A stretch of 64,000 bases of DNA, taken from the NCBI GenBank assembly GCA_964399295.1, contig CAYNQD010000001.1, positions 335,672-399,671 on the forward strand, written 5' to 3'. The notes below the pieces were generated by a model, which saw only the letters and a list, made by a program, of their open reading frames with translations, made no database searches and was not told where the DNA came from. Positions 4,687 to 54,264 of the stretch are shown here, piece by piece (within the stretch, counting starts at the first letter, position 1; each line of letters starts with the position of its first letter). This DNA is from an uncultured Candidatus Saccharibacteria bacterium (lineage in GTDB: Bacteria; Patescibacteriota; Minisyncoccia; Phycocordibacterales; UBA918). Both the position numbers and the translations under genes were made by a program.

Positions 4687-4725
4687 GGTGGTGGTGGCGC
4701 GAGCTAAAGCTCGCGCCACCACCAC
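4687..4725. repeat. GC-rich hairpin (about 17-bp stem, loop TAAA) between tRNA-Cys and tRNA-Leu
   Basis: ggtggtggtggcgcgagc-taaa-gctcgcgccaccaccac. No U-run on either side, so not a canonical intrinsic terminator. Confidence 0.5.
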
Positions 4726-4740
4726 GACACACAAAGACGT

Positions 4741-4829
4741 GCCGGGGTGGTGGAATGGTAGACACGAAGGACTTAAAATCCTTTGCCCATTAAAAAAGCG
4801 TGCGGGTTCGAGTCCCGCTCCCGGCACCA
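4741..4829 (+). tRNA. tRNA-Leu (TAA), long variable arm, CCA encoded
   Basis: Acceptor GCCGGGG/TCCCGGC, anticodon loop CTTAAAA, extended variable arm, T-arm GCGGG-TTCGAGT-CCCGC, discriminator A plus CCA. Confidence 0.85.
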
Positions 4830-4938
4830 AATCAGAACTCAAAAGATTGACCGCCCTCCGCAAATAGTGAGTTGCTGTGAGGTTTTCCTACAGCTATTGT
4901 TTTAATTGCATAATTGTTGTAAACTTTTCGTCACAAAC

Positions 4939-5011
4939 GCGCCTTTAGCTCAGTTGGTAGAGCAGCTCCCTCTTAAGGAGACGGTCCAAGGTTCGAGCCC
5001 TTGAAGGCGCA
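4939..5011 (+). tRNA. tRNA-Lys (CTT), CCA not encoded
   Basis: Acceptor GCGCCTT/AAGGCGC, D-arm GCTCAGTTGGTAGAGC, anticodon loop CTCTTAA, T-arm CAAGG-TTCGAGC-CCTTG. Confidence 0.85.
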
Positions 5012-5116
5012 CTAATAAAAAGACTACTGCTTTGCGGCGGTTTTTATTAACACACCTTCCCCACCCCACGCCCATTCGCCAACTTTAAATTTTGTGCTAT
5101 ACTCTTGCCTACACCC

Positions 5117-5198
5117 GCGCGGGTGGCGAAATTGGTAGACGCGTTAGTCTTAGGAACTAATAGAGCAATCTGTGGAGGTTCAAGTCCTCTCCCGCGCA
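5117..5198 (+). tRNA. tRNA-Leu (TAG), long variable arm, CCA not encoded
   Basis: Acceptor GCGCGGG/CCCGCGC, anticodon stem-loop TTAGT-CTTAGGA-ACTAA, long variable arm, T-arm GGAGG-TTCAAGT-CCTCT. A TGCTATACT extended -10-like box lies about 15 nt upstream. Confidence 0.85.
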
Positions 5199-5349
5199 CA
5201 AAAACCTGTACTGAAACTGTATGGTTTCAAGTCCTTTGCACACTAGTAGAAACTTCACTTCGCATAGTGTAATATGCTTTATGTAACAACAATGTTTGTT
5301 GTTATTGCTCTTTTGATTCCTAAATAAATTTTTAAGGAGGTACACAACA

Positions 5350-5601
5350 ATGAATGAAAAACATTGTTACAAAATATTCATCTCGGGAATTATATCAGTG
5401 GTTATAAGTGCGCTTGTGATATTGATACTAGTGTCGCAAGGATTAAGCCACACTGATATTGAACCAAAAGTTGCTTCCTATGTATTGGGAATAACGGGTT
5501 CTTTTATTTTCTTCATTTTGGTACTCTCTTTCATGATACATGAAAGTATTGTGCTATTAGTGACAAAGAAAATAGAAGACGGTTCAAGAAAAAATGATTA
5601 A
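5350..5601 (+). CDS. small hypothetical membrane protein (83 aa, 2 predicted TM helices)
   Basis: Strong RBS AAGGAGG 9 nt upstream of ATG. Hydrophobic segments. No recognisable family. Confidence 0.55.
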   Translation: MNEKHCYKIFISGIISVVISALVILILVSQGLSHTDIEPKVASYVLGITGSFIFFILVLSFMIHESIVLLVTKKIEDGSRKND

Positions 5602-5656
5602 CCAGCAAAGCCCCACACCAAGGATTCACTTACACAAGTGAATCCTTTTCCTTCTT

Positions 5657-6055
5657 TTACTTCCCTTCACGCGGCCCGCGCAAAATCTTCTCCATCTTCC
5701 GACCTTTTGCCAGTTCGTCCACCAGTTTATCCAAATACCGAGCCTGTCGTGTCAAAGGATTTTCGATTTCCTCTATCCGATAGCCGCAAATCATTCCGGT
5801 GATAAGAGGCGCATTGGGGTTGAGTGAAGCTTGCTCAAAAAATTCTGCAAACGTCGCTTTTTCTTTTATTAGTTCCCGCAACTTCTTACTATCAAAGCCC
5901 GTCAACCACTCTATAACCTGATGCAATTCTTTCTTCGTCCGGCCTTTACTCTCCACTTTTGTAACATAATGCGGATAGACAGAAGCAAAAATCATTTGTG
6001 CGATACGCTGGTGGTGGGTGTCAGAAATTTTCATAGTTATTTCAACTTTTTCCAT
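5657..6055 (-). CDS. DUF2200-like hypothetical protein
   Basis: 132 aa. MIFASVYPHYVTKVE...VIEWLTGF resembles the DUF2200 family widely annotated in bacteria. Assignment from memory. Confidence 0.5.
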   Translation of the reverse strand: MEKVEITMKISDTHHQRIAQMIFASVYPHYVTKVESKGRTKKELHQVIEWLTGFDSKKLRELIKEKATFAEFFEQASLNPNAPLITGMICGYRIEEIENPLTRQARYLDKLVDELAKGRKMEKILRGPREGK

Positions 6056-6134
6056 CAGAGTATTGTAACATTTGTTTATATTTGCTTTTCCTTAAATTTG
6101 GAAGCAGATAAGCCGAAGTAAAATAATCTACGGG

Positions 6135-6575
6135 TTACTCCTTACTCGCGCATGCCAACATCCATTGCACGCCGAATTTGTCGGTTAGGGAGCCGAAATA
6201 GTCGCCCCAAAACATGTCTTGCATTGGCATTTCTACCTTACCACCTTCGGCCAAAGCAGCGAAAAGTCGATCAGTCTCGGTGCGGGTATCGGGCTGAAGA
6301 TTGATGTAGATGTTGTTGCCAAACTTCACCGGTGGCAGCCCCATTGATTCCGTGGAGTCGGTGCCCATAAGCCTATAACCATCGAGAATCGGGAGTGACA
6401 CGTGCATGACGAGATTATCATTAGCCTCATTTCTTGGCGGCTGGTCTTCCGAAGGTGGAACATCTTTCATTCTCATAATACCGCCCTCAAATTCACCACC
6501 AAAAACTGATTTATAAAAATTAAACGCCTCCTCGGTATTACCAGAAAAATTTAAATAGGTACTTACTTTTGCCAT
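6135..6575 (-). CDS. VOC-family (glyoxalase/PhnB-like) protein
   Basis: MAKVSTYLNFSGNTEEAFNFYKSVFGG... is typical of PhnB-like VOC proteins. Start chosen at the internal ATG (residue 17 of the listed ORF). Confidence 0.65.
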   Translation of the reverse strand: MAKVSTYLNFSGNTEEAFNFYKSVFGGEFEGGIMRMKDVPPSEDQPPRNEANDNLVMHVSLPILDGYRLMGTDSTESMGLPPVKFGNNIYINLQPDTRTETDRLFAALAEGGKVEMPMQDMFWGDYFGSLTDKFGVQWMLACASKE

Positions 6576-6656
6576 AATTATATTATAGTTAACTAATTTG
6601 ATACTAACACCGTCATTATACACCCTTCATCGTTGTTTTCGGTAACGCCCTCTAGG

Positions 6657-7721
6657 CTAAGCCGTTGGTCGCAAACGAGCCTTTTTAAACTGCACACCAC
6701 GAAAATACTGATTGTACCACCGGGCAAAATTTTTCTTGACACCAGGCGGCAATTTGTCTATCAGGCGGCAACGAGTAGAACAATAGCCGTCGCGTTTTTC
6801 TACGCAATCATCACAACCCAAAAACAACACGTGACAAATCTGATTTTTGCAATGATAGTGTGTATCGCTCTTATTTTGGTGGCAAAGATGACAATGAGAA
6901 ATAATTTCCCCGCCGATTCTTTCACCCAAACGCTCATCAAACACAAAGTTCTTGCCTTTGAATTTGTTTTCCAATCCTTCCTTTTCCACTTGATGTTTAT
7001 AATCAATGATACCGCCCCGCAAATGACGCACGTCTTTAAAACCATTATGCTTTAGCCAAGCACTCGCCTTCTCGCAACGAATACCGCCGGTGCAATACAG
7101 AGCAATTTTCTTGTTCTTATGTTCTCGCAAAAGCTCCGGTACCACAGACAATTCCTCACGAAAAGTATCCACATCTGGAGTAACAGCCCGCTCAAACCGA
7201 CCGACCTCGCTCTCATAAGCATTGCGCATATCTACCACAATCGCATTTAGGTCGTCGATGTAGCTGTTCATGTCGGCGGCGGTGAGATATTCGCCGGTGT
7301 TGGTGACATCAAAACTACTGTCGTCCAGACCATCAGCCACTATCTTAGCCTTGACTTTGATTGTTAATTTGAAAAACGACGGCTTATCCCCTTCTTCCAC
7401 CGCAATTTTGTACGGCACACCGGCAAGCTCCGGCTGAGACTGCACCCAAGCGTCAAACTGCTGCCAATTCTCCTTTGGTACATTCATTTGGGCATTTATA
7501 CCCTCATGCGCCACATAAATTCGCCCCAGACAATCAAGCGCCGACCAAGCAGCCAGTAACCGCTCCCGAAAAGCCTCCGGATCAACCAAGCGCACATAAC
7601 GATAAAAAGACACCGTCGTCCGCGGTCGCAAATCAGCCAAAGCCGCCCGCCTTTTCTCCGCTCGCGGCAAACCGGCACTTAGATTTTTAACGGTTTTATT
7701 TTTAGACAATTGATGCTTCAT
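6657..7721 (-). CDS. trhO: rhodanese-domain tRNA uridine(34) hydroxylase TrhO/YceA (UPF0176)
   Basis: SFYRYVRL..DPEA N-terminal region, rhodanese active site CTGGIRCEK, C-terminal Cys-rich tail (CHLCHQNKSDTHYHCKNQICHVLFLGCDDC). Confidence 0.75.
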   Translation of the reverse strand: MKHQLSKNKTVKNLSAGLPRAEKRRAALADLRPRTTVSFYRYVRLVDPEAFRERLLAAWSALDCLGRIYVAHEGINAQMNVPKENWQQFDAWVQSQPELAGVPYKIAVEEGDKPSFFKLTIKVKAKIVADGLDDSSFDVTNTGEYLTAADMNSYIDDLNAIVVDMRNAYESEVGRFERAVTPDVDTFREELSVVPELLREHKNKKIALYCTGGIRCEKASAWLKHNGFKDVRHLRGGIIDYKHQVEKEGLENKFKGKNFVFDERLGERIGGEIISHCHLCHQNKSDTHYHCKNQICHVLFLGCDDCVEKRDGYCSTRCRLIDKLPPGVKKNFARWYNQYFRGVQFKKARLRPTA

Positions 7722-30370: not shown

Positions 30371-31234
30371 TCAAGCTTTTTTTCTGTACAATAAATTGGT
30401 TTTTTGATGTATGGATGCATATGCCATTGCAGTTTTGATAGCATTACTAAAATCAATATCAGTACTTAAACCAACTAAATAACCACCAAGAAATATATCA
30501 CCAGAACCTATTTCACTTTCATTCTTTGCAATATGTTGGTTTGGCAATATAAATTCAGAATATTCTCCGTTTTTATCAACTACTAAAACCTTCTTTGATG
30601 CTTGAGTTATCACAAGACGGCACTTTATATCATTTTGTAAATCTATAAGGTTTTTCTTGGTAATTTTTGTTATAGGTACGTTCAGAATACTAGAAAGCTC
30701 TTTTATATTTATTTTTAAAGTATGTGGCAAAATCTTTTTTAAGGCTTCTACGTTAAAAGTTGTCGTATCCAAAATTTTTTTACACCGAATATCTGAAACT
30801 AATTTTGTGAGTAAACTATAATCTGCATCCCCCTTCAGGAATGGAGTCGACCCAGCTATCACAAGATAATCTTCTTCTCCAATAATTCCTTTAATTTTAT
30901 TGAAAAACTGCTCAATATTAGAGTATGAGGCTACTGATTTACTACGAATATGCGAAACCAACTGAGAATTTTTATAGATAGTAAAGTTTTGACGTATAGA
31001 TCCTTCATGAAAAAAGAACTCATGCTCTTCCCTTGAGACACTTTCAAAAGGTATTTTTCCAGAAAAAACTAACGAACAGAAATTTATATTATTAATAATA
31101 AGAGGCTTAGCCGAATTTATAGCCTTACTTGCTAAAAAATACTCAACTTTTTGTGCAATACAATCTCTACTACCAAACTCGTCAACTTCTATCTTTGTGT
31201 CTATGGCAGGATTTAATGTTATTAAATAAATCAC
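30371..31234 (-). CDS. PfkB-family carbohydrate kinase (1-phosphofructokinase/tagatose-6-phosphate kinase-like)
   Basis: N-terminus MIYLITLNPAIDTKIEVDEF is typical of FruK/LacC. PfkB signature GSGDIFLGGYLVG near the C-terminus. Strongly AT-rich. Confidence 0.7.
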   Translation of the reverse strand: MIYLITLNPAIDTKIEVDEFGSRDCIAQKVEYFLASKAINSAKPLIINNINFCSLVFSGKIPFESVSREEHEFFFHEGSIRQNFTIYKNSQLVSHIRSKSVASYSNIEQFFNKIKGIIGEEDYLVIAGSTPFLKGDADYSLLTKLVSDIRCKKILDTTTFNVEALKKILPHTLKINIKELSSILNVPITKITKKNLIDLQNDIKCRLVITQASKKVLVVDKNGEYSEFILPNQHIAKNESEIGSGDIFLGGYLVGLSTDIDFSNAIKTAMAYASIHQKTNLLYRKKA

Positions 31235-32277
31235 GCTAATATTATATCAGTTTGATGATTATCAAAGTATTTTTGGTAATCTTTAAGTAGCCTGCCACCA
31301 TTAGTTTCAGCTGATATAATCTTTATATTCTCATTAAATTCTGCAAAAATTTGCGATTGTCTTAATCCAAACTTATCTTCAGTGCAGACTATATACTTTG
31401 ACTTGCAATATCTAAGTAATGAGGCTTTCGCACGCTTTTCTCCAGAATCTGCTGTTGTAAACCCAACATTCTTTAAAATTCCATTGGTTCCCACGAAGCC
31501 TATATCCGCGCCGCCTAATGACGGTAAAACTTTGTCAAAATCATGAAAAATATCTTCTTCCACACTTTCGTTGTCGTCCACAATTGCCATTGTGTTAAGC
31601 CTTACTCTGCCACCTATAATAAATAATCTAAACATAGGATCATGATCTTCGAGTCCTAATTCGCTACATGCCGTCACAATTGCATCGGCGACCAAGAAAG
31701 AGCTGGTTACCACAGTAATCTTTCTCAACGAATGGTCTTTAAAGCCTTTTGCGATTAGCTTAGCTATTTCTAGGGTAGTAGTACCAGCATCTAATGCCAC
31801 CACATCACCTGACTTAATAAACGAATAAGCTTTTTCTGCGATCTTTCTTTTTTCGTGCCGTCCTATATTTTTCTTCCACGATATATGTTCCTCATGTATA
31901 AATAAATTATCGTGCTCTCGCACCAATCCTGGAAGCTTATCTTGGACAATTAGTGCAGATAGTGCTTTTTGAAAAGCTTCGAAATCTAGTTCTGTCTCTT
32001 TTCTATCCACTAGTCTTTTATGAAGATCAAATACTGTTATTGGATCGTCTTTTTGATATGGTCTAACTACGTTTAATATTGTTGCTGCTTGTGTTTTTAA
32101 AAGTCTTTCTGTTTCCTCGAGTGCGGTCTCCGGCTCAATTGTATTTTCTTCAATGACAAATGATTTTCTGAGCTTTTGAATAAATTTAAACTTTTTATTT
32201 ATATACAACCCAATCAATGCGCAAACGGCTGTCACTATCGTGGTAATTATTGCTGCCGTAGCTGTATCAATGAACAT
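31231..32277 (-). CDS. DeoR-family-like regulator (sugar-phosphate sensor domain) with N-terminal transmembrane helix
   Basis: DeoR C-terminal effector-domain pattern (SGDVVALDAGTTTLEIAKLIA...ITVVTSSFLVA). N-terminal 25 aa hydrophobic. 4-nt overlap with the kinase gene. Confidence 0.55.
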   Translation of the reverse strand: MFIDTATAAIITTIVTAVCALIGLYINKKFKFIQKLRKSFVIEENTIEPETALEETERLLKTQAATILNVVRPYQKDDPITVFDLHKRLVDRKETELDFEAFQKALSALIVQDKLPGLVREHDNLFIHEEHISWKKNIGRHEKRKIAEKAYSFIKSGDVVALDAGTTTLEIAKLIAKGFKDHSLRKITVVTSSFLVADAIVTACSELGLEDHDPMFRLFIIGGRVRLNTMAIVDDNESVEEDIFHDFDKVLPSLGGADIGFVGTNGILKNVGFTTADSGEKRAKASLLRYCKSKYIVCTEDKFGLRQSQIFAEFNENIKIISAETNGGRLLKDYQKYFDNHQTDIILA

Positions 32278-45092: not shown

Positions 45093-45167
45093 GCCCTCGT
45101 AGCTCAATGGATAGAGCTATTCCGTCCTAAGGAAGAGATGTGGGTTCGATTCCTGCCGAGGGCACCA
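45093..45167 (+). tRNA. tRNA-Arg (CCT), CCA encoded
   Basis: Acceptor GCCCTCG/CGAGGGC (perfect), D-arm GCTCAATGGATAGAGC, anticodon loop GTCCTAA, T-arm GTGGG-TTCGATT-CCTGC, ACCA end. Confidence 0.85.
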
Positions 45168-45189
45168 AAATCTGATAAAGAATTAGGAA

Positions 45190-45212
45190 GAAACTCTGCG
45201 AGTTTCTTTTTT
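45190..45212 (+). terminator. rho-independent terminator after tRNA-Arg
   Basis: gaaactc-tgc-gagtttc followed by tttttt. Confidence 0.75.
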
Positions 45213-45320
45213 CGTTTTAGCTTGATTTTATTTGACATTTGTTGTAATTTGACTTTGGTATTAAGCCCGATTGTCGGGCTTAAATCGTACATTCCCAACC
45301 AAAAAGAAAGGTGGACAGCT

Positions 45321-46025
45321 ATGGAAACAAGTCGTATCATTCTGGCGGCTGATGAGCTGAGTCTCGATCAATGCTTGGAGCTTGCCTCCAAGGTCGGCGA
45401 TCGGGTTCACGCCATAAAGATTCACAACGCGTTCGATCAACAAGGCCCCGGTGTCGTCCAGCGACTTCGGGACGCAGGCGCTCGTCGTGTCTGGGTGGAT
45501 GCGAAACTCCACGATATCCCGAACACTGTCAAGCTCCGTGCGAAGGCAATCGCCGAGTCCGGAGCCGACATCCTCACCGTTCACGCCTCTGGCGAGATCG
45601 AGATGATGATGGCCGCAGTGGAAGCGGGACCGTCGGAGATCTACGCGATCACGGTTCTCACTTCGCTCGGCGAGGAACAGGCGCACCTTCTGCACGGACA
45701 ACCGTCCAAGGCAGGCGCACTCTACCTCGCGCGTCTCGCGAAGCTCGCGGGCGTTCACGGTGTTGTGTGCTCACCCAAGGAGGTCGTGATCCTCGCCAAG
45801 AGGCCCGAACTTCAGGGGCTGAAGTTTATCACACCGGGTGTTCGTTCTTCCGGCAAGGCAACCGACGATCAGAAGAGAGTGGATACTCCGGCGGGCGCGA
45901 TCGCTTCCGGCTCAACTCATCTCGTCGTCGGACGGCAAATCACGCAGGCAACTGATCCGGTGGATGCACTCCGCCAGATCGAGGAGGAGATTTCTCCGAA
46001 CGCTACGAAGGAGGTGAAATCATGA
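45321..46025 (+). CDS. pyrF: orotidine 5'-phosphate decarboxylase
   Basis: OMPDC motifs ILAADELS, DAKLHDIPNT, ILTVHASG, FITPGVR. RBS AAAGGTGG. Roughly 60% GC by eye. Confidence 0.85.
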   Translation: METSRIILAADELSLDQCLELASKVGDRVHAIKIHNAFDQQGPGVVQRLRDAGARRVWVDAKLHDIPNTVKLRAKAIAESGADILTVHASGEIEMMMAAVEAGPSEIYAITVLTSLGEEQAHLLHGQPSKAGALYLARLAKLAGVHGVVCSPKEVVILAKRPELQGLKFITPGVRSSGKATDDQKRVDTPAGAIASGSTHLVVGRQITQATDPVDALRQIEEEISPNATKEVKS

Positions 46026-46651
46026 ACGAGCAAGAAGTCCTGCAGGTTCTCGGCAAAGTTGGAGCAGTCATCGCCGACAGCCACATCGTCTACACGTCTG
46101 GCAAGCACGGCACGGCGTACGTCAACAAGGATGCGGTTTACCCGCACACCGCGAAGACGTCTCGCCTCTGTCGAGCAATCGCCGAGCGGTTCGCGGACGA
46201 CAAGGTGCACGTGGTCATCGCTCCGGCAATCGGCGGCGTGATTCTCTCGCAGTGGACAGCACATCATCTCACGGAGATGAACGGTCACGAGGTGTTCGGG
46301 GTTTACGCCGAGAAGTCCGAAAGCGGAGACGCCTTCGTCATCAAGCGTGGCTACGACAAACTCATCGCTGGCAAGAACGTTCTGGTAGTGGAAGATGTTC
46401 TCACCACCGGCGGCTCCGCCAAGAAAGTGATCGAAGCCACGCGAGCGATTGGCGGCAATGTCATCGGCCTCGGCGTCCTCTGCAATCGTGGAGGAATCAC
46501 GCCGCAAGATGTGGCCGATGTTCCGAAACTCACGGCACTCGTCTCCGTCAAGCTCGACGCACATGACGAGGCAACGTGTCCGCTCTGCGAGCAGAACGTC
46601 CCGATCAACACGGACGTCGGCAAGGGGCGCGAATTCCTCGCGCGAAAGTAA
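46022..46651 (+). CDS. pyrE: orotate phosphoribosyltransferase
   Basis: PRPP-binding motif VLVVEDVLTTGGS. ATGA overlap with pyrF. Same high-GC composition. Confidence 0.8.
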   Translation: MNEQEVLQVLGKVGAVIADSHIVYTSGKHGTAYVNKDAVYPHTAKTSRLCRAIAERFADDKVHVVIAPAIGGVILSQWTAHHLTEMNGHEVFGVYAEKSESGDAFVIKRGYDKLIAGKNVLVVEDVLTTGGSAKKVIEATRAIGGNVIGLGVLCNRGGITPQDVADVPKLTALVSVKLDAHDEATCPLCEQNVPINTDVGKGREFLARK

Positions 46652-47003: not shown

Positions 47004-47870
47004 TCAGCTCAAGAATTTCTCGATAAATTTATCGTATCGAAACTTCTGGATTTTTGGCCATTTATGCATTCTGACCAGCAGCCAAGTTGCTCTTGTAAAT
47101 TCAAAGTCAGATTGAAAATTTGAAAGCTTTGGCAGGTTATGTTCAACGCAAATCTCATCAAGTAGCGTGAAATATTGCGCTCTTTGTTCCTCCAAAAATC
47201 TGTACTTTGCAAAGTACTCAAACTCTTGTGAATCTGGGAAGTAGTCTATAGAAACTATTCCACCAATCAGGTCGTGTCCAAATGGTGCATGGTAAGAATC
47301 CTCCAAATCTATAGCGCCTCCTGGGTACAAATTATGTGGATTGAAATCTCCATGACTAATAACGAATGGAAGTTCAGTTATCCTTTCCTGAATCTCTCTA
47401 AATCTGGACTGGATTTTTTCCGCATACTCTGGAAGTTCTTGGCAGAGAATGTCTAAATGAATACCATCAGCAAACCCTTCAAAGTTTCTGTCGGGGGTCT
47501 GAGTGTGTAGTTGTGCGCGAGCAAATTGATCAGTGATACTTAGAAACTGATTGAAACTTTCTTCGCTTATAGCTCCGGTTAATTCAGTCTCTTCGGCAAA
47601 TGCTGCACTAAGCGTCTTATCGCCAACTGAAGATTCAACAAAATAGACCCTTCCATCCAGCTCTCCTTCAGTAATTAGTCTTGCAACTGGAAATCCGGCC
47701 GACTCCATGCGTTTGTGAAGAGCTAGATCGGAATGTATTTTTGCCGCTACACCTATTCGTAAATATGAGTCAGGGCTTTTGTAGACAGCTGAATTACCAT
47801 CACGCTGTCCTTTTACAAACTCAAAGGTAGTTCCTTCAAGTTCAATTTTCTCAGGTATCTCTGATATCAT
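47004..47870 (-). CDS. phosphotransferase enzyme family protein (APH/choline-kinase-like fold)
   Basis: Catalytic loop HGDFNPHNL, downstream DLEDS. 288 aa. Substrate unknown. Confidence 0.65.
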   Translation of the reverse strand: MISEIPEKIELEGTTFEFVKGQRDGNSAVYKSPDSYLRIGVAAKIHSDLALHKRMESAGFPVARLITEGELDGRVYFVESSVGDKTLSAAFAEETELTGAISEESFNQFLSITDQFARAQLHTQTPDRNFEGFADGIHLDILCQELPEYAEKIQSRFREIQERITELPFVISHGDFNPHNLYPGGAIDLEDSYHAPFGHDLIGGIVSIDYFPDSQEFEYFAKYRFLEEQRAQYFTLLDEICVEHNLPKLSNFQSDFEFTRATWLLVRMHKWPKIQKFRYDKFIEKFLS

Positions 47871-48712: not shown

Positions 48713-50506
48713 CTAATCACTTTTAACCATTTTCATAAAGACTTCCTGAGGAATATGGACTTTTCCTTTTCCTCTTTCTAGCATTTTCTTCTTGCCGCGT
48801 TTTTGGTTTTCTCGCAGTTTCATTTTGCGAGTTATATCACCGCCGTAAAGATGTCCGGTGACATCTTTTTTCAAAGCCGACAAAGTCCTGGAAGCGATAA
48901 TTTTTCCGCGTACTTTGGCTTGAATCTTGGTCACAAACTGCTGTCTCGGTAAAGTATCATAAAGTTTTTCTACCATGGCACGCGCGTCAAATTCGGCTCG
49001 ACGCTCACCCACCACTCTCGAAAAAGCCGGAATCAATTCCTCCGCCACCAGTATATCCAGTCGCACCACTTCCGCTTGGCGCATCTCGGCAATTTCGTAA
49101 GAAAGCGAGCCGTACCCGCTGGTGGCGTTCTTTAATTTATCAAAGAAATTACGCATCAGTTCCCGCAGAGGCATCTCCAAAGAAATGATATTTCTGCCGT
49201 CGCCAAAGACTTCAGTATCTATCACCTGCGCCTCGTGTTCATAAAGCAGGGTCAAAACCGCGCCCATGTAGTCTGGAGGTAAAATAATTTGTCCCAATAT
49301 CCATGGTTCACGAATAGTGACTTTTTCGCCGTGATCGGGAAATCTGGACGCGGCGTAGATATTTTCAATTTCGCCGTCACTATTGGTGATTTCGTAGGAA
49401 ATTGAAGGGGCGGTGATGATAATGTCGATAGTGAATTCTCGCCGCAATCGTTCCGCAATAATTTCCATGTGCAACATTCCCAAAAAACCACACCGAAAAC
49501 CTCGTCCCAAGACTCCGGAAGATTCTTCTTCATAAGAAAGTGACGAATCAGACAATTTCAATCGCTCCAACGCTTGTTTTAAAATAGTGAAATCATCTTG
49601 CTCATCAGGGAAAATAGAAGCCCAGACCACCGGCCTAGCTTCCATGTAGCCAGTGAGTGCAGGGGCGGGGTTTTTGTCCATAATCAAAGTGTCGCCCACT
49701 GTCGCTACTCCGGGTTCTTTAATTCCTGTTACGATATAACCAATTTCGCCTGCTTTTAGGGAAGCGACGGGAGTTTCGCTTGGCGTAACAATACCTGTCT
49801 CAAGAGCGGTAAAAGTGCGTCCGCTAGCACTAAAACGCAGCAAATCACCCTTCTTCACTTCCCCATCAAAAACCCGCATAAAAACGATAATTCCCCGATG
49901 ATTTGAGTATTGGAAATCAAAAATCAAACCGCGGTAAGCATTTAGCTGGCTGGGTTGCGGCGGCGGAATTTTGACGCATATCTCCATCAACAATTTATCT
50001 ACTCCCTCGCCGGTTTTGCCAGACACAAAAATAATATCTTCTTTGGCGCATGAAAGCAGAGCCACCACTTCCGCACTCACTTCTTCCGGCCGGGAGTGTG
50101 GCACGTCGATTTTGGTCAAAACCGGGATAATGGTCAAGCCCTGCTCTCTGGCCATTTGGAGAGTGGTCAAGGTTTGCGCTTGTATGCCCTGTGTACTATC
50201 GACCAGCAGAAGCACTCCCTCTACGGCTTTCAAGGCCCTCGAAACTTCATACGAAAAATCAATATGCCCCGGGGTGTCAATTAAATTCAATTCGTAGATA
50301 TTACCGTTAAATTGATAATTCATGCGTACCGGTTGCATTTTGATAGTAATTCCCCGTTCCCGCTCCAAATCCATGGAATCAAGTACTTGCTCTTTCATTT
50401 TGCGCGCTTCTACTGTCTTTGTAATCTCAAGCATGCGATCGGCCAAGGTTGATTTTCCATGGTCGATGTGAGCGATAATGCTAAAATTGCGAATCTGTCT
50501 TTCCAT
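48713..50506 (-). CDS. lepA: elongation factor 4 (LepA)
   Basis: [31 protein letters not shown]-equivalent TKID, LepA-specific C-terminal domain. 597 aa. Confidence 0.9.
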   Translation of the reverse strand: MERQIRNFSIIAHIDHGKSTLADRMLEITKTVEARKMKEQVLDSMDLERERGITIKMQPVRMNYQFNGNIYELNLIDTPGHIDFSYEVSRALKAVEGVLLLVDSTQGIQAQTLTTLQMAREQGLTIIPVLTKIDVPHSRPEEVSAEVVALLSCAKEDIIFVSGKTGEGVDKLLMEICVKIPPPQPSQLNAYRGLIFDFQYSNHRGIIVFMRVFDGEVKKGDLLRFSASGRTFTALETGIVTPSETPVASLKAGEIGYIVTGIKEPGVATVGDTLIMDKNPAPALTGYMEARPVVWASIFPDEQDDFTILKQALERLKLSDSSLSYEEESSGVLGRGFRCGFLGMLHMEIIAERLRREFTIDIIITAPSISYEITNSDGEIENIYAASRFPDHGEKVTIREPWILGQIILPPDYMGAVLTLLYEHEAQVIDTEVFGDGRNIISLEMPLRELMRNFFDKLKNATSGYGSLSYEIAEMRQAEVVRLDILVAEELIPAFSRVVGERRAEFDARAMVEKLYDTLPRQQFVTKIQAKVRGKIIASRTLSALKKDVTGHLYGGDITRKMKLRENQKRGKKKMLERGKGKVHIPQEVFMKMVKSD

Positions 50507-50988
50507 ATTTATTTATAACAGTACTTTACCCTACCCCGACCACAAAAACTAGCCCCTGTTATCAGTCATAAATAATTTGAAAGATGTCAGTAATCTTAAA
50601 ACACAGTTGGCAAAGCCCTCCAGGAATTTGAGATTATTTCATGTACTTTAAGTAAATTCAATTTGGTATAGGGGAATATATGAGTTGTTTATATGTTGAA
50701 AATAAGTTAGTCTAATTTTCATGGAAGGCCCACTTGAGCAGTTAATAAAAGAAAGAAAACCAATCTTTAGAACCTTAACAAAGATTGCTGATAAAGAACA
50801 CACTGCTTACGAACTTGCTTCGCTCCTTCATGTGGATAGTCTTGACATAGTAACCCCTAGGGTTATTGCTTCAACAGATAAAACTATTTCAATGGAGTTT
50901 TTTCCAGGTATTTCTGCATTCCGAGCGCTTGAGTTGCTTTAATTTACAAACTGTCATAATGAGATAGAGAAACTTTTAGTTAAAATAT

Positions 50989-52557
50989 ATGAGAATTTTA
51001 GTTTTAGCACCATATAGCAGGCCTTGGGATGAATCAGATGCGGAAGGGAGCGGTATGAACATTTTTATTCGTGAAAGCTGTGAAGCGCTGGTAGCAGCGG
51101 GACATACTGTAGATGTTTGTATAAGAAAGTCTCGACCAGGAGATCAAGAGGTGTTTAAAATTCGTAAAGGCTTAAATGTTCACAGTCTTAAAGCTGGTTT
51201 GGTTGGAAAATTATCTCGACATGAAGTTTATAATGCCTTGCAAAAATCTGGATTTTCTGATGATTTGGTTGACAGAGCTGATTTGGTAATCGCACATTAT
51301 TGGATATCAGCACCTTGGATAAAAGCAGTTTCTGGAAAGTATCACGGTCGGATTCTGTATTTTTCTCATTCTCATTTTCTAAATCCATATCGTGAACAAG
51401 TTGATTCTTTGCACCAAAAAGCTGAAATTGGCTTGCTTGGTCGAGTGACTTGGTGTGCTTATAGTTCGGAGGAGTTTGAGAGTCTTTCCGACATTTTGCC
51501 TGAAGGAAGGTTGGCTATGACTCATCCTGGGGTGGAGAATGTGGTTGGATTTGGTGATTTAGAACGAACCAACGAGGTTTTGTTTGTGGGTAGGAAAAAT
51601 CATGCCAAAGGTTATGATTTATTTTGTGCAGTCGCTAATAGATTTCCATATCTTTCATTTGTGGCAATTGGTAGAGATGAGGTAGGGGATGATATCAATA
51701 CGGAACATGTTATTTCAGAGGATTTTTTGGAATTATCTAAGTTACAAAGAAGAATATCCGCCGCACGATTGGTTGTCTGCCCATCTCGCTATGAGCATTT
51801 TGGCTTGATTCCACTACTGGCACTTTCAGTCGGTACACCTGTTGTAGCTACAAATCGAGGTGGTTTTAAGGATGTAATAATTTCAGAAAGTACTGGCGTA
51901 TTATGTGAAAGTAATGTTGAGTCAATAGCTAATGCAATTAACTTAGCCCTTGATAAGTTACCTATACCAGCTCAGGACACAAAAGCCAAAGAAATTTTAA
52001 ATAAATACTCTTGGAATAATTGGGTGCGGGAAATACAAGCAGTGGCTACACAGACTGACAATTTGCTTCAGACTAAATTTTTAGAGGTTAGTGTGACACC
52101 TCACAAAACCAACGGTGCTGTTGTTTGGTACGAAAAAGTGAAATTGCCAGGTTCCGTTCATGTGATTCCGGTAAATGAAGATGGCACGTATGAATTTATA
52201 GAGGAAGATAGATACGATGAAGGTGTCTCGGGTAAGCTTCGAGTTCTTTCAGGTATAATTGAGAAAGGAGAATCTCCCGATCAAGCCGCTATCAGAGAAT
52301 TAAAAGAAGAAATTGGCTGGGAGACTGAAAGATTAGTCTTGATTTGGCATTCCATGACAAAAGGTACTGTTGAAGACCAGCGGTATTATTTTCTTGCTGA
52401 AAATTCAAAAAAAGGCGCCTCTATACCAGATACAACTGAAAGGATTGTTGATACGCGCTCTATTGCTAAAGAGGAACTATTAAAATTAGTACAGCAAGGA
52501 GTTTTTGGGGAATCATTTACGGCAGTTGCTCTCTTGAAGTTGTGTGGTATTTTATAA
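50989..52557 (+). CDS. GT4-family glycosyltransferase fused to C-terminal NUDIX hydrolase domain
   Basis: GT4 N-terminal region. EX7E-type motif EHFGLIPLLALSVGTPVVATNRGGFKDVI. Nudix box GIIEKGESPDQAAIRELKEEIGW about 120 aa from the C-terminus. Confidence 0.7.
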   Translation: MRILVLAPYSRPWDESDAEGSGMNIFIRESCEALVAAGHTVDVCIRKSRPGDQEVFKIRKGLNVHSLKAGLVGKLSRHEVYNALQKSGFSDDLVDRADLVIAHYWISAPWIKAVSGKYHGRILYFSHSHFLNPYREQVDSLHQKAEIGLLGRVTWCAYSSEEFESLSDILPEGRLAMTHPGVENVVGFGDLERTNEVLFVGRKNHAKGYDLFCAVANRFPYLSFVAIGRDEVGDDINTEHVISEDFLELSKLQRRISAARLVVCPSRYEHFGLIPLLALSVGTPVVATNRGGFKDVIISESTGVLCESNVESIANAINLALDKLPIPAQDTKAKEILNKYSWNNWVREIQAVATQTDNLLQTKFLEVSVTPHKTNGAVVWYEKVKLPGSVHVIPVNEDGTYEFIEEDRYDEGVSGKLRVLSGIIEKGESPDQAAIRELKEEIGWETERLVLIWHSMTKGTVEDQRYYFLAENSKKGASIPDTTERIVDTRSIAKEELLKLVQQGVFGESFTAVALLKLCGIL

Positions 52558-52596
52558 ACCGCTTTCTATTAAAAAGAGCTGTAGCAGTTCCCAACC

Positions 52597-54264
52597 CTAC
52601 TGTGGACCAATAACATCTTTTTTTAGGAAGAATTTGGCGTGCAGGGATTTGGAGATTTCTTCTAGTTCTTTTGATTTTAAAATATGATAAACCAAAATCG
52701 CGCTCAAAACGCCCACAAAGGCCGCCGTGGCTCCTTGCAGCAAAATACCCATAAAAGTTTCCTGATTGATGCCGTCCACGATAAAAATAAGAGTTGCGTA
52801 GGCCGACAGCCCAGCAGATAATCCCGCCAACACGGCTTCCACTATTCTCTTTCCGATTCCTTGCCATTCTAAGTCAAAGATCGAAGAAGCGACGGCAATT
52901 AAGATAATCATTTCTATAATCACTCCCGTCACAAACGCCAAAGCCAAAATAAAGACTTCCGTACCGGAAACACCTTCCAATCTAAAAACGCTCTCCAAAA
53001 AAGAGCGAAAAGCCAAAGAAGAATTAAACCAATTCAAAAATAAAAAAGCGGAGCTGATGGAAGCCGTCGCTCCAATCGTAGCAATAATAAGCGGCAAGCG
53101 AGTATTGCCACCGGCGTAGAAAGTCCTTATCAATAAAAGCATAAAAGACTGCGCGGTAAGAGCAATGATAAACAGGGCCAGCATAGCAGCCACCAAACGG
53201 GTATCATTCCAATCAAAAGCCCCACTACCCAAAACCACTCGGACGATTTGTGCACGCAATACTATGACCAAAGCAATAATCGGGAATGACCAAAAAATAA
53301 TGTGGCGGAGAGCCGTATAGACATGGATATTAAAAATATCGCGCTTCTTCTGCGCGAAGAGGTCTGCCAAAACCGGAAAAGCCGCCACGGAATAACTCAT
53401 GCCAATAATAGCCAACGGCACGGATTGCAAATTGAAAGCAAATTGAAAAATAGAAACCGAACCGACAGTCATCATTGTCGCCATACTGATAAATACCAGC
53501 AGTACCACCTGATGAATAGACAAAGTAATAGCTCTAGGAATGGCCACCATCAAGACAGAGCGCACTAGCTTTAAATCAAAAACTTTAACCAAACCAAAAG
53601 ACAGTTCGCTGCGCAAAATCAAGGGTAATTGTACCAACATGTGTCCGGCAGCACCCGCCACCACTCCCCAGACCAAACCCGACAAACCAAAAGCGGGATA
53701 AAGAAAAATAATTCCTAAAATTATCCCTAAATTATAAATCAAAGGACTAATGGCGTACAAAATAAAACGCTGTGACAATTGCGTTATCACGCCAAACAAA
53801 CTTGAAATACCAAGCAAAAAAGGCTGCAATAATAATATTCTAAGCAAAGTAACTAAAGTTTCATTATCAGCTCCAAAACCGGGAAATAGCATTTTCACTA
53901 AAAACGGAGCGAAAATAAATAGTAACAAGGCTAAACAAATATAGATAACTATAAATATAGTAAACATCTGCCCCAGAATATTTGAACCGGTTTTTACATC
54001 ATCATCTTCTTTGGCCCTAGCCACAAAGGGCAGCAAAACATAAACCGACAAAACCGAAGCGAATAAAACAAACAGCAAGTCAGGGATTTTAAAGGCCGTG
54101 TAATACAAATCCAATTCATTGCTCGCACCAAAAGTATGCGCCAACAAACGGTCTCTGATTAAGGCCAGAAGCTGCGAACCGAAAGCAAATAAAGCAAGAA
54201 TATACGCGGCTTGATGCAAGCCGCGTATTTCGCTATACATAAGTTTGAAGACTCGTTTTACCAT
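52597..54264 (-). CDS. murJ: lipid II flippase MurJ (MviN)
   Basis: 14-TM MOP-superfamily pattern with the MurJ N-terminus (LLALIRDRLLAHTFGASNELD). Confidence 0.8.
   Translation of the reverse strand: MVKRVFKLMYSEIRGLHQAAYILALFAFGSQLLALIRDRLLAHTFGASNELDLYYTAFKIPDLLFVLFASVLSVYVLLPFVARAKEDDDVKTGSNILGQMFTIFIVIYICLALLLFIFAPFLVKMLFPGFGADNETLVTLLRILLLQPFLLGISSLFGVITQLSQRFILYAISPLIYNLGIILGIIFLYPAFGLSGLVWGVVAGAAGHMLVQLPLILRSELSFGLVKVFDLKLVRSVLMVAIPRAITLSIHQVVLLVFISMATMMTVGSVSIFQFAFNLQSVPLAIIGMSYSVAAFPVLADLFAQKKRDIFNIHVYTALRHIIFWSFPIIALVIVLRAQIVRVVLGSGAFDWNDTRLVAAMLALFIIALTAQSFMLLLIRTFYAGGNTRLPLIIATIGATASISSAFLFLNWFNSSLAFRSFLESVFRLEGVSGTEVFILALAFVTGVIIEMIILIAVASSIFDLEWQGIGKRIVEAVLAGLSAGLSAYATLIFIVDGINQETFMGILLQGATAAFVGVLSAILVYHILKSKELEEISKSLHAKFFLKKDVIGPQ

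What the first reader, a model, noticed from the sequence alone, without database searches (positions are those of the whole stretch)
50507..52557. GT4 glycosyltransferase fused to a NUDIX hydrolase, behind a 480-bp AT-rich spacer
The 522-aa protein has a complete GT4 (group 1) glycosyltransferase including the EX7E-type motif. It continues into a C-terminal domain with a canonical Nudix box (GIIEKGESPDQAAIRELKEEIGW). Fusing a nucleotide-sugar-using transferase to a nucleoside-diphosphate-X hydrolase is uncommon. It suggests coupled turnover of an NDP-sugar donor or by-product. The gene and the preceding 480-bp non-coding stretch are visibly more AT-rich than neighbouring lepA and murJ. That stretch contains a 73-aa ORF that may be a gene remnant. 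Together this suggests acquisition.
Basis: partly seen in the sequence, partly recalled or inferred. Interest (0 to 1): 0.6.

Follow-up and report, generated by a model that had tools for sequence, protein, structure and literature searches.

The report
Glycosyltransferase–Nudix fusion, relic of operon
A real and very rare two-in-one enzyme (a sugar-transferase joined to a nucleotide-diphosphate-cleaving Nudix domain) that in related tiny-genome bacteria sits in a small unstudied biosynthetic operon, of which this genome keeps only this gene and a stump of its neighbour.

Summary
ORF 50989-52557 (+) encodes 522 aa: a GT4 glycosyltransferase (MshA/sucrose-phosphate-synthase-like) joined to an ADP-ribose-pyrophosphatase-type Nudix domain with a canonical Nudix box. 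One correction: the "EX7E" motif is E-X7-L here.

The fusion is not an artefact. It is one continuous ORF in about 16 divergent lineages (36-58% identity). It also occurs split into adjacent genes in one locus. It is very rare: 31 proteins at E<=1e-30 among 1.84 billion representatives, and every organism-named record is a Patescibacteria genome.

In relatives the gene lies between an unannotated APH/choline-kinase-fold kinase and an NMNAT/PPAT-like HxGH nucleotidyltransferase. A VOC protein and an aminotransferase are often present too.

The "480-bp spacer" is largely the first ~92 codons of that kinase, so the 73-aa ORF is its stump. A 99%-identical strain still has the nucleotidyltransferase. 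This window lost it by a 596-bp deletion between two GTGGTATT repeats, which also rewrote the gene's last codons.

Low GC3 (0.276 against 0.44) and mobile-element neighbours support acquisition.

The mechanism is inferred only: kinase plus transferase make an NDP-(probably ADP-)linked compound, the GT half glycosylates, and the Nudix half cleaves the pyrophosphate.

The parts
50507..50720 (.). Divergent intergenic region between the lepA start (- strand) and the kinase-gene remnant (+ strand).
   Evidence: GC of the whole 50507-50988 stretch is 0.334. The promoter scan was no better than shuffles.
50721..50987 (+). Pseudogene: 5' remnant (about residues 1-92 of ~285) of the operon's APH/choline-kinase-fold kinase gene ('K'). 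The 73-aa ORF 50721-50942 is its still-open part.
   Evidence: tblastn of K orthologues from L004, L002 and L001 hits only here (E 3e-8, 5e-8, 6e-5). Alignment A3. In strain L019 the same stump is open for 98 codons. Codon differences to L019: 1 synonymous, 3 non-synonymous.
50989..52557 (+). Intact 522-aa GT4-Nudix fusion gene ('GX').
   Evidence: AF2 model: pLDDT 88.4, pTM 0.79.
50989..51543 (+). GT-B N-terminal (acceptor-side) Rossmann domain, residues ~1-185. It carries the EGSGMN loop and many invariant Arg/His residues (R11, R46, R49, R77, H103, H127, R135).
   Evidence: Pfam Glyco_transf_4. Invariant columns. Matches the N-domains of MshA and SPS.
51556..51993 (+). GT-B C-terminal (nucleotide-donor) Rossmann domain, residues ~190-335, with GRKNHAKG (R202, K207) and CPSRYEHFG.
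   Evidence: Pfam Glycos_transf_1, 75.7 bits. Foldseek matches to MshA 3c48/3c4q and SPS 6kih.
51793..51819 (+). The 'EX7E' position: E269-HFGLIPL-L277. The first Glu is kept and the second is replaced by Leu.
   Evidence: Alignments.
52051..52554 (+). ADPRase-type Nudix module, residues 355-522: an N-terminal beta-sheet sub-domain plus the Nudix fold.
   Evidence: NudE model covers residues 369-516. T. thermophilus ADPRase 1v8i, E 2.6e-10. B. methanolicus Nudix 8wv3, Foldseek E 1.6e-11, TM(target) 0.68-0.73.
52252..52320 (+). Nudix box GIIEKGESPDQAAIRELKEEIGW, residues 422-444.
   Evidence: Read directly from the sequence. G422, E428, R436, E437, E440, E441 and G443 are invariant.
52544..52551 (+). 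Deletion junction: the single remaining copy of GTGGTATT. The 596 bp present here in strain L019 are missing. They held the last codons of GX (…GILPRD*) and the whole 174-aa nucleotidyltransferase gene. Codon L522 and the stop (52552-52557) come from sequence that lies beyond that gene in L019.
   Evidence: blastn and alignment of the window against L019. The deleted allele is also seen in an independent assembly, L020.

Best explanation
SHOWN. The ORF is a genuine, intact bifunctional gene. Its first part is a soluble retaining-type GT4 glycosyltransferase of the MshA/sucrose-phosphate-synthase structural class. It is tethered through the GT-B C-terminal crossing helix to an ADP-ribose-pyrophosphatase-type Nudix hydrolase whose catalytic residues are fully conserved.

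The gene is the central member of a very rare accessory operon. Every record that names an organism is Patescibacteria (Paceibacterota, Kaiserbacteria). The operon order is: APH/choline-kinase-fold kinase (K, no Pfam family), then optionally a VOC protein and an aminotransferase, then GT4::Nudix, then an HxGH nucleotidyltransferase (N) closest to NMN and phosphopantetheine adenylyltransferases.

In this window the operon has decayed. K is cut to a ~92-codon stump that abuts the GT start. N was removed by a recent 596-bp deletion mediated by microhomology.

INFERRED (mechanism).
1. K phosphorylates a hydroxyl compound X, possibly an amine-bearing alcohol or sugar given the fold neighbours and the optional aminotransferase.
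2. N converts X-P into an NDP-X. ADP-X is most likely, because both N and the Nudix domain are closest to adenine-nucleotide enzymes.
3. The GT half glycosylates an anionic (phosphorylated or NDP-linked) acceptor bound by its Arg/His-rich N-domain.
4. The fused Nudix half then cleaves the pyrophosphate bond of the NDP-linked pathway compound into NMP and a phospho-product. The two halves would thus catalyse consecutive steps on one ligand, as in SPS-SPP or TPS-TPP fusions.

Without K and N, the copy in this window is an orphan. It would have to use housekeeping substrates, or it is drifting towards loss.
For: Domains.

Conservation of the fusion: full-length fused relatives at 36-58% identity, 13 clusters including the window's own. 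Ten full-length representatives were found in an exhaustive HMMER scan of 1.84e9 proteins.

Split form: L015 has the order K-N-G-DegT-X, with an orthologous 177-aa Nudix.

Triple fusion: P0016 is GT-Nudix-VOC, which ties VOC to the pathway.

Operon in eight loci:
- K-GX-N in L001, L004 and L012/13.
- K-V-A-GX-N in L002, L006 and L011, with overlapping stop and start codons.

K family: only 9 clusters, and each one that could be traced lies on a contig that also carries the GT or GT-Nudix gene. AF2 pLDDT 91.6; best folds are APH(3')-Ia, the choline kinase LicA, and choline/ethanolamine kinases. FRDATPKN and IDF motifs are invariant.

N: PMRxQPFHxGH and GxxIR motifs. Best PDB profile hits are M. 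jannaschii NMNAT 1f9a (1.4e-6), NaMNAT, NadM-Nudix 2qjt and PPAT. Cytidylyltransferases score weaker.

Nudix neighbours are ADPRases.

N-domain invariant Arg/His residues.

Decay in the window. Non-synonymous:synonymous codon differences are 4:2 in GX against 2:19 in six flanking genes (Fisher p = 0.011).
Against: - No substrate is known for any of the four proteins. The order of steps and the identity of X and of the nucleotide are inference from fold neighbours.
- The Nudix X-loop lacks the ADPRase proline, and all NCBIfam equivalog cut-offs are missed. It is therefore not a plain ADP-ribose pyrophosphatase.
- The second Glu of EX7E is absent, so donor recognition may be unusual.
- A DegT aminotransferase in L015 normally acts on NDP-keto-sugars. 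That fits the rival in which NDP-X is the GT donor, not the acceptor.
- Short 'N-domain + Nudix' proteins and stand-alone Nudix relatives live without K or N. The Nudix activity does not strictly need the operon.
- The relaxed-selection signal rests on six codon differences.
- Model coordinates could not be inspected, so the geometry between the two active sites is unknown.
Confidence: 0.4

Rival explanations
1. Donor control or editing. K+N build an ADP/NDP-sugar that is the GT's donor. K would act as an anomeric sugar kinase and N as in ADP-heptose synthesis, with the aminotransferases modifying the NDP-sugar. The fused Nudix hydrolyses that donor, or an unmodified or wrong precursor, to NMP plus sugar-1-P. 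It would then be a throttle or proofreader, like AspP/NudF towards ADP-glucose or Gmm/WcaH towards GDP-mannose.
For: - The Nudix is closest to the ADP-sugar/ADP-ribose pyrophosphatase clade, including the YffH/AdpP model.
- GT structural neighbours include the ADP-glucose users GlgM and archaeal glycogen synthase.
- L015 has a DegT-family aminotransferase, a family that works on NDP-keto-sugars (established knowledge).
- An epimerase/dehydratase-like fragment lies near the operon in L008.
- Nudix hydrolysis of nucleotide sugars is well documented (PMC7729866).
Against: - Fusing a donor-destroying enzyme to the transferase creates a futile cycle with K and N, which looks costly in a genome of roughly 0.6 Mb.
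- The kinase's best fold matches are APH and choline/ethanolamine kinases. Known anomeric sugar kinases were not among the top 50.
- No dehydratase is a constant operon member.
Confidence: 0.25
2. By-product removal. The Nudix half hydrolyses the NDP released by the GT (NDP to NMP + Pi). This would relieve product inhibition and return the nucleotide to a cell with minimal nucleotide metabolism.
For:
- GTs are generally inhibited by their NDP product (established knowledge).
- Some ADPRase-clade Nudix enzymes, such as human NUDT5, cleave nucleoside diphosphates (own knowledge).
- A fusion would place the hydrolase at the site of NDP release.
Against: - ADPRase-type enzymes normally need an X moiety beyond the diphosphate.
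- The family has its own conserved X-loop and N-terminal sub-domain residues (E382, SVH389-391, E406, E484), which suggests recognition of a specific X.
- This model does not explain the constant kinase and nucleotidyltransferase partners.
Confidence: 0.12
3. In this particular genome the gene no longer has a selected function. It would be a still-open relic of a horizontally acquired cassette that is being deleted piece by piece.
For: - K is reduced to a stump. N is deleted in this strain but present in a 99%-identical strain.
- No K, N, aminotransferase or VOC homologue occurs elsewhere in the 64 kb.
- Codon differences to L019 are 4 non-synonymous to 2 synonymous, against 2:19 in neighbouring genes (p = 0.011).
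- The cassette is disrupted by IS200/IS605 insertions in other strains, L007 and L008.
- GT-domain-deleted forms occur in other lineages.
Against: - The 522-codon ORF is intact in both strains, with every catalytic residue of both domains preserved.
- The deletion junction kept the reading frame usable.
- Only six substitutions are available for the selection test.
- Only 64 kb of a contig of about 594 kb was searched for partner genes.
Confidence: 0.35
4. Part of an anti-phage or conflict system. The grounds would be the Pfam GT4-conflict hit, the Nudix domain, and the mobile-element neighbourhood.
For: - PF20706 GT4-conflict, 51.5 bits.
- The operon is flanked by resolvase, TraG-like and integrase genes in L011 and by transposases in L006-8.
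- Nudix domains occur in NAD-linked conflict systems (PMC7159879).
Against: - PADLOC gave nothing for K, N, the aminotransferase or VOC, and only an 18.8-bit hit on the Nudix box for GX.
- The GT4-conflict match covers only residues 250-305. That stretch is the generic GT4 core, also covered by Glycos_transf_1.
- The operon's content (kinase, aminotransferase, nucleotidyltransferase, GT) looks biosynthetic.
- No viral protein spans both domains.
Confidence: 0.05
5. Sequencing or assembly artefact: a frameshift joining two separate genes.
For: None found.
Against: - The identical ORF is on 4 contigs from independent assemblies.
- Full-length fusions of 522-535 aa occur in about 16 divergent clusters at 36-58% identity.
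- AF2 gives one confident multi-domain model.
Confidence: 0.01

Closest known systems
MshA (GlcNAc-inositol-phosphate synthase) and cyanobacterial sucrose-phosphate synthase Tll1590: soluble GT4 enzymes with phosphorylated small-molecule acceptors
   Same: These are the best sequence and structure matches for residues 1-353: 6kih at E 1e-17, 3c4q/3c48 at E 1.5e-14, and Foldseek E 5e-18 to 1e-17 with TM(target) up to 0.75. They share the GT-B fold, the R/K phosphate-binding motif, the first Glu of EX7E, and a basic N-domain.
   Different: Only about 20-23% identity. The MshA equivalog score is 71.9 against a cut-off of 462.5. The second Glu of EX7E is Leu. A C-terminal Nudix domain is present, which neither enzyme has. 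Donor and acceptor are unknown.
ADP-ribose pyrophosphatases (T. thermophilus Ndx4 1v8i; B. methanolicus Nudix/ACT 8wv3; E. coli NudE and NudF)
   Same: Same Nudix sub-fold, including the N-terminal beta-sheet sub-domain. Canonical Nudix box. Conserved acidic residues downstream (D463, E484) align with ADPRase acidic residues.
   Different: Fused to a GT. The X-loop reads T-K-G where ADPRases have S-P-G, so the diagnostic proline (PMC5389931) is missing. NudE score is 39.9 against a cut-off of 169, and YffH/AdpP is 18.6 against 79.55. The family has its own signature (E382, SVH389-391, E406).
[quoted passage not shown] 2008, listed as ref. 108 in PMC5389931)
   Same: It pairs an HxGH adenylyltransferase-type enzyme with an ADPRase-type Nudix in one pathway. 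The operon's N protein hits NadM-type NMNATs, including 2qjt.
   Different: Here the nucleotidyltransferase is a separate gene and the Nudix is fused to a glycosyltransferase instead. No NAD-pathway genes are in the operon. The NF003786 cut-off is missed by far.
Synthase-hydrolase fusions for phospho-glycosides: plant/cyanobacterial SPS with an SPP-like domain, and trehalose-6-P synthase-phosphatase fusions (own knowledge)
   Same: A GT-B transferase is followed in the same polypeptide by a hydrolase acting on a phosphate ester or anhydride of the same pathway. This is the logic of the favoured model.
   Different: Those hydrolases are HAD phosphatases that remove a monoester phosphate. Here the hydrolase is a Nudix pyrophosphatase that would remove a nucleotide.
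Nucleotide-sugar-hydrolysing Nudix enzymes acting alongside GTs: AspP/NudF against ADP-glucose and glycogen synthase (own knowledge); GDP-mannose mannosyl hydrolase Gmm/WcaH in the colanic-acid cluster (PMC7729866)
   Same: A Nudix enzyme is genetically or functionally tied to glycosyltransfer through the nucleotide-sugar pool.
   Different: Those are separate proteins. Gmm has a degenerate Nudix box and cleaves at carbon, whereas this domain has a full box. The antagonistic role is only a rival model here.
Kinase plus HxGH-nucleotidyltransferase activation pairs: the Kennedy pathway (choline/ethanolamine kinase + CCT/ECT), and HldE (heptose kinase + adenylyltransferase) (own knowledge); LicA choline kinase, 4r7b
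   Same: The operon's K has the APH/choline-kinase fold, with LicA and ChoK/EthK among the top fold hits. N has the HxGH/ISxTxxR-type motifs. Together they look like a phosphorylate-then-nucleotidylate module.
   Different: K matches no Pfam or NCBIfam kinase model and has an FRDATPKN catalytic loop. N is nearer to adenylyl- than to cytidylyltransferases. Substrates are unknown.

Membership tests
GT4 glycosyltransferase (GT-B, retaining) | Pfam Glycos_transf_1 (C-domain) and Glyco_transf_4 (N-domain) above their gathering scores | tested here: met
   75.7 bits against 26.4, and 36.8 bits against 28.5.
GT4 glycosyltransferase (GT-B, retaining) | Two-Rossmann GT-B fold with a C-terminal helix crossing back to the N-domain | tested here: met
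   AF2 pLDDT 88.4. Foldseek matches MshA, SPS, GlgM and BshA at E 1e-12 to 5e-18.
GT4 glycosyltransferase (GT-B, retaining) | EX7E motif with both glutamates | tested here: not met
   E269 is invariant, but position 277 is Leu. Among the relatives aligned, only P0008, P0009 and P0011 have Glu there.
GT4 glycosyltransferase (GT-B, retaining) | Conserved Arg/Lys (GRxxxxKG) for the donor diphosphate | tested here: met
   R202, K207 and G208 are invariant or nearly so.
GT4 glycosyltransferase (GT-B, retaining) | Glycosyl-transfer activity with a nucleotide-sugar donor | not testable with these tools
   Requires an enzyme assay.
MshA / BshA / SPS equivalogs | NCBIfam equivalog score above the curated cut-off | tested here: not met
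   MshA 71.9 against 462.5. BshA 41.3 against 273.7. The SPS N-domain model 24.7 against 576.
Nudix hydrolase superfamily | Nudix box GX5EX7REUXEEXGU | tested here: met
   Residues 422-444, GIIEKGESPDQAAIRELKEEIGW. Box residues are invariant in 16 full-length and 7 short relatives.
Nudix hydrolase superfamily | Pfam NUDIX above its gathering score, and a Nudix fold | tested here: met
   41.5 bits against 21.1. Foldseek match to 8wv3, 9jax and 8zr8 at E ~2e-11.
ADP-ribose pyrophosphatase (NudF/NudE/YffH clade) | Closest characterised relatives are ADPRases, with the N-terminal beta sub-domain present | tested here: met
   1v8i at E 2.6e-10, query residues 27-158 aligned to chain residues 28-154. 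The NudE model covers residues 369-516.
ADP-ribose pyrophosphatase (NudF/NudE/YffH clade) | Curated family score (NudE equivalog; YffH/AdpP subfamily) | tested here: not met
   39.9 against 169, and 18.6 against 79.55.
ADP-ribose pyrophosphatase (NudF/NudE/YffH clade) | Conserved proline in the X-loop downstream of the Nudix box (Dunn et al. 1999, as summarised in PMC5389931) | tested here: not met
   The window has H-S-M-T-K-G where T. thermophilus ADPRase has V-S-P-G. No sequence of alignment A1 has Pro there.
ADP-ribose pyrophosphatase (NudF/NudE/YffH clade) | Downstream catalytic acidic residue on the loop after the Nudix fold | tested here: inconclusive
   E484 is invariant in the family and aligns with the acidic D-E-A-I-E stretch of 1v8i. 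Equivalence to the catalytic base was not checked in 3D.
NadM-Nudix bifunctional enzyme | NMNAT domain and Nudix domain in one polypeptide, scoring above NF003786 | tested here: not met
   The nucleotidyltransferase is a separate 174-176-aa gene in relatives and is absent from the window. NF003786 scores 12.7-13.5 against 397.
Known anti-phage defence systems (PADLOC) | A match of the operon proteins to PADLOC models | tested here: not met
   No hits for K, N, the aminotransferase or VOC. GX gave only an 18.8-bit hit on the Nudix box.

The most novel reading that the evidence does not exclude
The cassette encodes a previously undescribed small-molecule pathway of Patescibacteria. In it a nucleotide (probably ADP) serves as a temporary handle. 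A new kinase family and an NMNAT-like transferase would load the handle onto an (amino-)alcohol or sugar. The GT4 half would glycosylate the handled compound. The fused Nudix half would remove the handle, giving a phospho-glycoside. That would make Nudix a dedicated biosynthetic step physically coupled to a glycosyltransferase. The recurrent 'GT N-domain + Nudix' short forms would then be hydrolases that reuse the old acceptor-binding domain as their substrate-recognition module.
Probability: 0.25. Interest if true: 0.7.

Novelty: new variant of a known kind. Interest (0 to 1): 0.5.

Why it matters
Nudix hydrolases are mostly regarded as house-cleaning enzymes, and GT4 enzymes as stand-alone transferases. 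A conserved covalent fusion of the two argues that a Nudix domain can be a committed pathway component of glycoconjugate or small-molecule synthesis. The fusion sits in a compact operon with an unannotated kinase family and an NMNAT-like nucleotidyltransferase.

The family appears restricted to ultra-small Patescibacteria, whose metabolism and surface chemistry are poorly known. A self-contained four-to-six-gene cassette is a tractable entry point for biochemistry.

The pair of 99%-identical strains, one with and one without the nucleotidyltransferase, also gives a dated snapshot of how an acquired operon is dismantled in a reduced genome.

For this window alone the practical message is more modest. 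The gene is real but orphaned, so annotating it as an active 'cell-wall glycosyltransferase' would be unsafe.

Tried and rejected
- **Frameshift or assembly artefact:** rejected.
- **Searching the window for the missing partners:** tblastn with K, N, aminotransferase and VOC orthologues found only the K stump.
- **Could the nearby 288-aa APH-family kinase (47004-47870) replace K?** No detectable relationship to K, or to the choline-kinase-like gene near the operon in L007.
- **Is the Nudix next to the GT-only gene in L003 the same subfamily?** No, only the Nudix box matches.
- **Do stand-alone Nudix relatives (P0036) or short forms (P0031, P0017, P0015) keep K or N as neighbours?** They do not.
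- **Second, profile-based word search for more family members:** nothing new.
- **Promoter/terminator scan of 50400-52750:** no better than shuffles.
- **PADLOC and PHROGs:** no system-level match.
- **Viral structure library:** no protein spans both domains.
- **AFDB Foldseek search for other GT-Nudix fusions:** the library was unavailable.
- **Literature:** six full-text searches found no description of a GT-Nudix fusion. The large Nudix-clan review does not contain the word glycosyltransferase.
Full report
**1. The observation**

The window has one ORF at 50989-52557 (+) of 522 aa. It lies between lepA (48713-50506, -) and murJ (52597-54264, -).

Pfam places three domains, each above its gathering score:
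- Glyco_transf_4 on residues 21-137 (36.8 bits).
- Glycos_transf_1 on residues 192-323 (75.7 bits).
- NUDIX on residues 390-497 (41.5 bits against a cut-off of 21.1).

The Nudix box GIIEKGESPDQAAIRELKEEIGW (residues 422-444) is canonical.
- The GT4 'EX7E' is E269-X7-L277. Among the relatives aligned, only P0008, P0009 and P0011 carry the second Glu.
- The 482-bp stretch 50507-50988 is not plain spacer (see section 3).

The compositional remark is right. Gene GC is 0.393 and GC3 is 0.276, against a window mean GC3 of 0.44 (sd 0.079). lepA has GC3 0.469 and murJ 0.434. The upstream stretch has GC 0.334.

**2. The fusion is real, conserved and very rare**

A search of 5.8 billion clustered proteins returned only 24 hits:
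- 13 full-length fusion clusters, of which 12 are relatives at 36-58% identity and one is the window's own protein. These are 522-532 aa, plus one 661-aa form with an extra VOC/glyoxalase domain.
- Four GT-only proteins (351-363 aa).
- Three proteins of 382-399 aa in which the GT C-domain is missing.

A second search with the family profile found nothing new.

An exhaustive HMMER scan of 1.84 billion representatives found 31 proteins at E<=1e-30:
- Ten full-length fusions.
- About six 'N-domain + Nudix' short forms.
- Three GT-only forms.
- Fragments, and a few stand-alone ~170-aa Nudix proteins. More stand-alone Nudix proteins follow at weaker E-values.

The records that name an organism are Paceibacterota or Kaiserbacteria MAGs. 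A Parcubacteria MAG carries one of the stand-alone Nudix relatives. The identical protein occurs on four independently assembled contigs. A frameshift artefact is therefore excluded.

Six full-text literature searches and a comprehensive review of the Nudix clan gave no description of a GT-Nudix fusion. No viral predicted structure spans both domains.

**3. Anatomy of the protein**

AlphaFold2 on a 13-sequence alignment gave pLDDT 88.4 and pTM 0.79.

*GT half (residues 1-353).* This is a GT-B fold. By sequence its best solved relatives are the sucrose-phosphate synthase Tll1590 (6kih) and MshA (3c4q/3c48). By structure they are MshA, SPS, the maltose-1-phosphate synthase GlgM, archaeal glycogen synthase, BH4 glucosyltransferase and BshA. 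All are soluble GT4 enzymes, several of them with small, phosphorylated acceptors. No NCBIfam equivalog cut-off is approached. The N-domain carries many invariant basic residues: R11, R46, R49, R77, H103, H127 and R135. This suggests an anionic acceptor, but that is an inference.

*Nudix half (residues 355-522).* This has the ADPRase sub-fold, including its N-terminal beta-sheet sub-domain. The closest relatives are T. thermophilus ADP-ribose pyrophosphatase (E 2.6e-10) and the B. methanolicus Nudix/ACT protein, by both sequence and fold. The best NCBIfam model is NudE, 'ADP compounds hydrolase', but it scores far below its cut-off. The proline of the X-loop that marks ADP-ribose enzymes (PMC5389931) is replaced: T-K-G where ADPRases have S-P-G. 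The family also has its own invariant residues, E382, S389-V390-H391, E406 and E484. The domain is most likely an active NDP-X pyrophosphatase. X is probably not simply ribose-5-phosphate.

**4. The genomic context is the main new result**

In relatives the gene is the centre of a compact operon:

| Architecture | Loci |
|---|---|
| K - GX - N | L001, L004, L012/L013 |
| K - VOC - class-III aminotransferase - GX - N | L002, L006, L011 (overlapping stops and starts) |

*K (~285 aa).* It matches no Pfam or NCBIfam family. Its family comprises only nine clusters, and each one that could be traced lies on a contig that also carries the GT or GT-Nudix gene. Its AF2 model (pLDDT 91.6) matches APH(3')-Ia, the choline kinase LicA, APH(2''), and choline/ethanolamine kinases. 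The FRDATPKN and IDF motifs are invariant. It is therefore a small-molecule kinase.

*N (~175 aa).* It has the PMRxQPFHxGH and GxxIR motifs of HxGH nucleotidyltransferases. Its profile is closest to archaeal NMNAT (1f9a, 1.4e-6), NaMNAT, NadM-Nudix and PPAT. Cytidylyltransferases score weaker.

*Evidence that the parts work together.*
- In L015 the same parts are separate genes in the order K, N, GT (351 aa), DegT aminotransferase, Nudix (177 aa). That Nudix shares the family signature.
- P0016 fuses GT-Nudix to the VOC domain.
- These split and triple-fused forms are classic evidence that the activities belong to one pathway.

*Evidence for mobility.*
- The cassette is AT-richer than its flanks in 7 of 8 loci.
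- It is flanked by resolvase, TraG-like and integrase genes in L011, and by IS200/IS605 transposases in L006-L008. In L007 and L008 the aminotransferase is truncated, with transposase genes immediately upstream.
- This fits a horizontally moving accessory module.

**5. State of the locus in this window**

tblastn with K, N, aminotransferase and VOC orthologues finds only K, only at 50721-50987, and only K residues 1-92 (E 3e-8 to 6e-5). The 73-aa ORF is thus the stump of K. It ends directly at the GT start codon.

L019 is 99.0-99.6% identical to the window and syntenic with it. Its gene order is pyrF, pyrE, APH, grx, divIC, lepA, K stump, GX, N, murJ. It still carries a 174-aa N gene.

The window lacks 596 bp (L019 7963-8558) that lie between two copies of GTGGTATT. 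The deletion removed N and changed the GX C-terminus from ...GILPRD* to ...GIL*. The deleted allele is also present in another assembly, L020.

Codon differences between the two strains:

| Gene(s) | Synonymous | Non-synonymous |
|---|---|---|
| GX | 2 | 4 |
| K stump | 1 | 3 |
| pyrF, pyrE, grx, murJ, TPR gene, SBP gene (combined) | 19 | 2 |

Fisher's exact test for GX against the flanking genes gives p = 0.011. The numbers are small. They point to relaxed constraint on an orphaned gene.

**6. How it most likely works**

*Shown:* two catalytically intact-looking domains, their obligate association (fused or adjacent), and the constant kinase and nucleotidyltransferase partners.

*Inferred:* K phosphorylates a hydroxyl compound. 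N turns the phosphate ester into an NDP-X. The adenylyltransferase-like N and the ADPRase-like Nudix both point to ADP-X.

I favour, at about 0.3, a consecutive-step model:
1. The GT half glycosylates the phosphorylated or NDP-linked compound bound by its basic N-domain.
2. The Nudix half then cleaves the pyrophosphate, releasing NMP and a phospho-glycoside.

This is analogous in logic to SPS-SPP or TPS-TPP fusions.

The main rival, at about 0.25, is that NDP-X is the GT's donor and the Nudix throttles or edits it, as AspP or Gmm do. The DegT aminotransferase in L015 favours this. Removal of the NDP by-product is less likely, at about 0.12. Independently of these, the window's own copy may be a functionless relic, at about 0.35.

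**7. An unexpected side result**

Seven clusters are short proteins of 364-399 aa that keep the GT N-domain, the crossing helix and the Nudix domain but lack the donor-binding C-domain. They have different deletion boundaries and belong to at least two clades.

In these proteins every Nudix catalytic residue is kept. The EGSGMN loop of the GT has degenerated.

None of the three whose neighbourhoods were examined has K or N next to it.

Selection therefore holds on to the Nudix module, and the N-domain with which it is structurally contiguous, after glycosyltransfer is lost.

**8. Verdict**

The finding is real and is more than the sum of two common domains. It is a very rare, uncharacterised domain combination with a conserved, equally uncharacterised operon. 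I rate it a new variant of known kinds of enzyme, not a new kind of system.

In this particular window it is an orphan in a cassette caught in the act of being deleted.

Interest is moderate (0.5). There is good material for biochemistry and for studying genome reduction in Patescibacteria, but no substrate or phenotype can be assigned by computation.

Noticed in passing
window 45093-46651: The pyrF-pyrE pair (45330-46651) has GC 0.54-0.59 and GC3 0.59-0.65, against a window mean of 0.44. It lies directly after tRNA-Arg(CCT) at 45093-45167. It looks like a foreign insertion at a tRNA gene. It is also present in strain L019.
   Followed up: partly
window 30371-32277 (- strand): Two adjacent genes have the lowest GC in the window: a PfkB-family sugar kinase (287 aa) and a protein with a DeoR C-terminal sensor domain (348 aa). 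Their GC is 0.30-0.36 and GC3 0.22-0.29. This is possibly another acquired block.
   Followed up: partly
window 48713-50506 (lepA): Against the 99%-identical strain L019, lepA alone carries 41 synonymous and 2 non-synonymous codon differences. Neighbouring genes carry 0-7. This suggests a homologous recombination tract confined to lepA.
   Followed up: no
P0007, P0015, P0017, P0028, P0031, P0032, P0034; loci L005 1873-3072, L014 8001-9149, L018 6001-7095: Recurrent short proteins consist of the GT4 N-domain plus the Nudix domain, with the donor-binding GT domain deleted in frame. Nudix residues are fully conserved and the GT glycine loop is degraded. None of the three whose neighbourhoods were examined has an operon partner next to it.
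   Followed up: partly
P0016 (661 aa; contig of 3033 bp): A triple fusion of GT4, Nudix and a VOC/glyoxalase domain. The VOC part is homologous to the separate 132-138-aa VOC gene of the longer operon versions.
   Followed up: partly
L016/L017 6001-7110: The closest stand-alone Nudix relative (P0036, 176 aa, from a Parcubacteria MAG) is followed by a 182-aa paralogue with a degenerate Nudix box. This is a possible catalytic/non-catalytic Nudix pair.
   Followed up: no
L006-L008 around 4000-7200: Strain variants carry one identical GX protein. In two of them the upstream aminotransferase is truncated, to 278 and 206 aa, with IS200/IS605 (Y1 transposase) genes just upstream. In L006 the kinase gene is split by a frameshift (266 + 124 aa). 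The cassette therefore decays by different routes in different lineages.
   Followed up: partly
window 47004-47870 (- strand): A 288-aa APH-family phosphotransferase lies 3 kb from the kinase stump. It is unrelated to the operon kinase (hhalign probability 0.5%) and identical in strain L019.
   Followed up: yes
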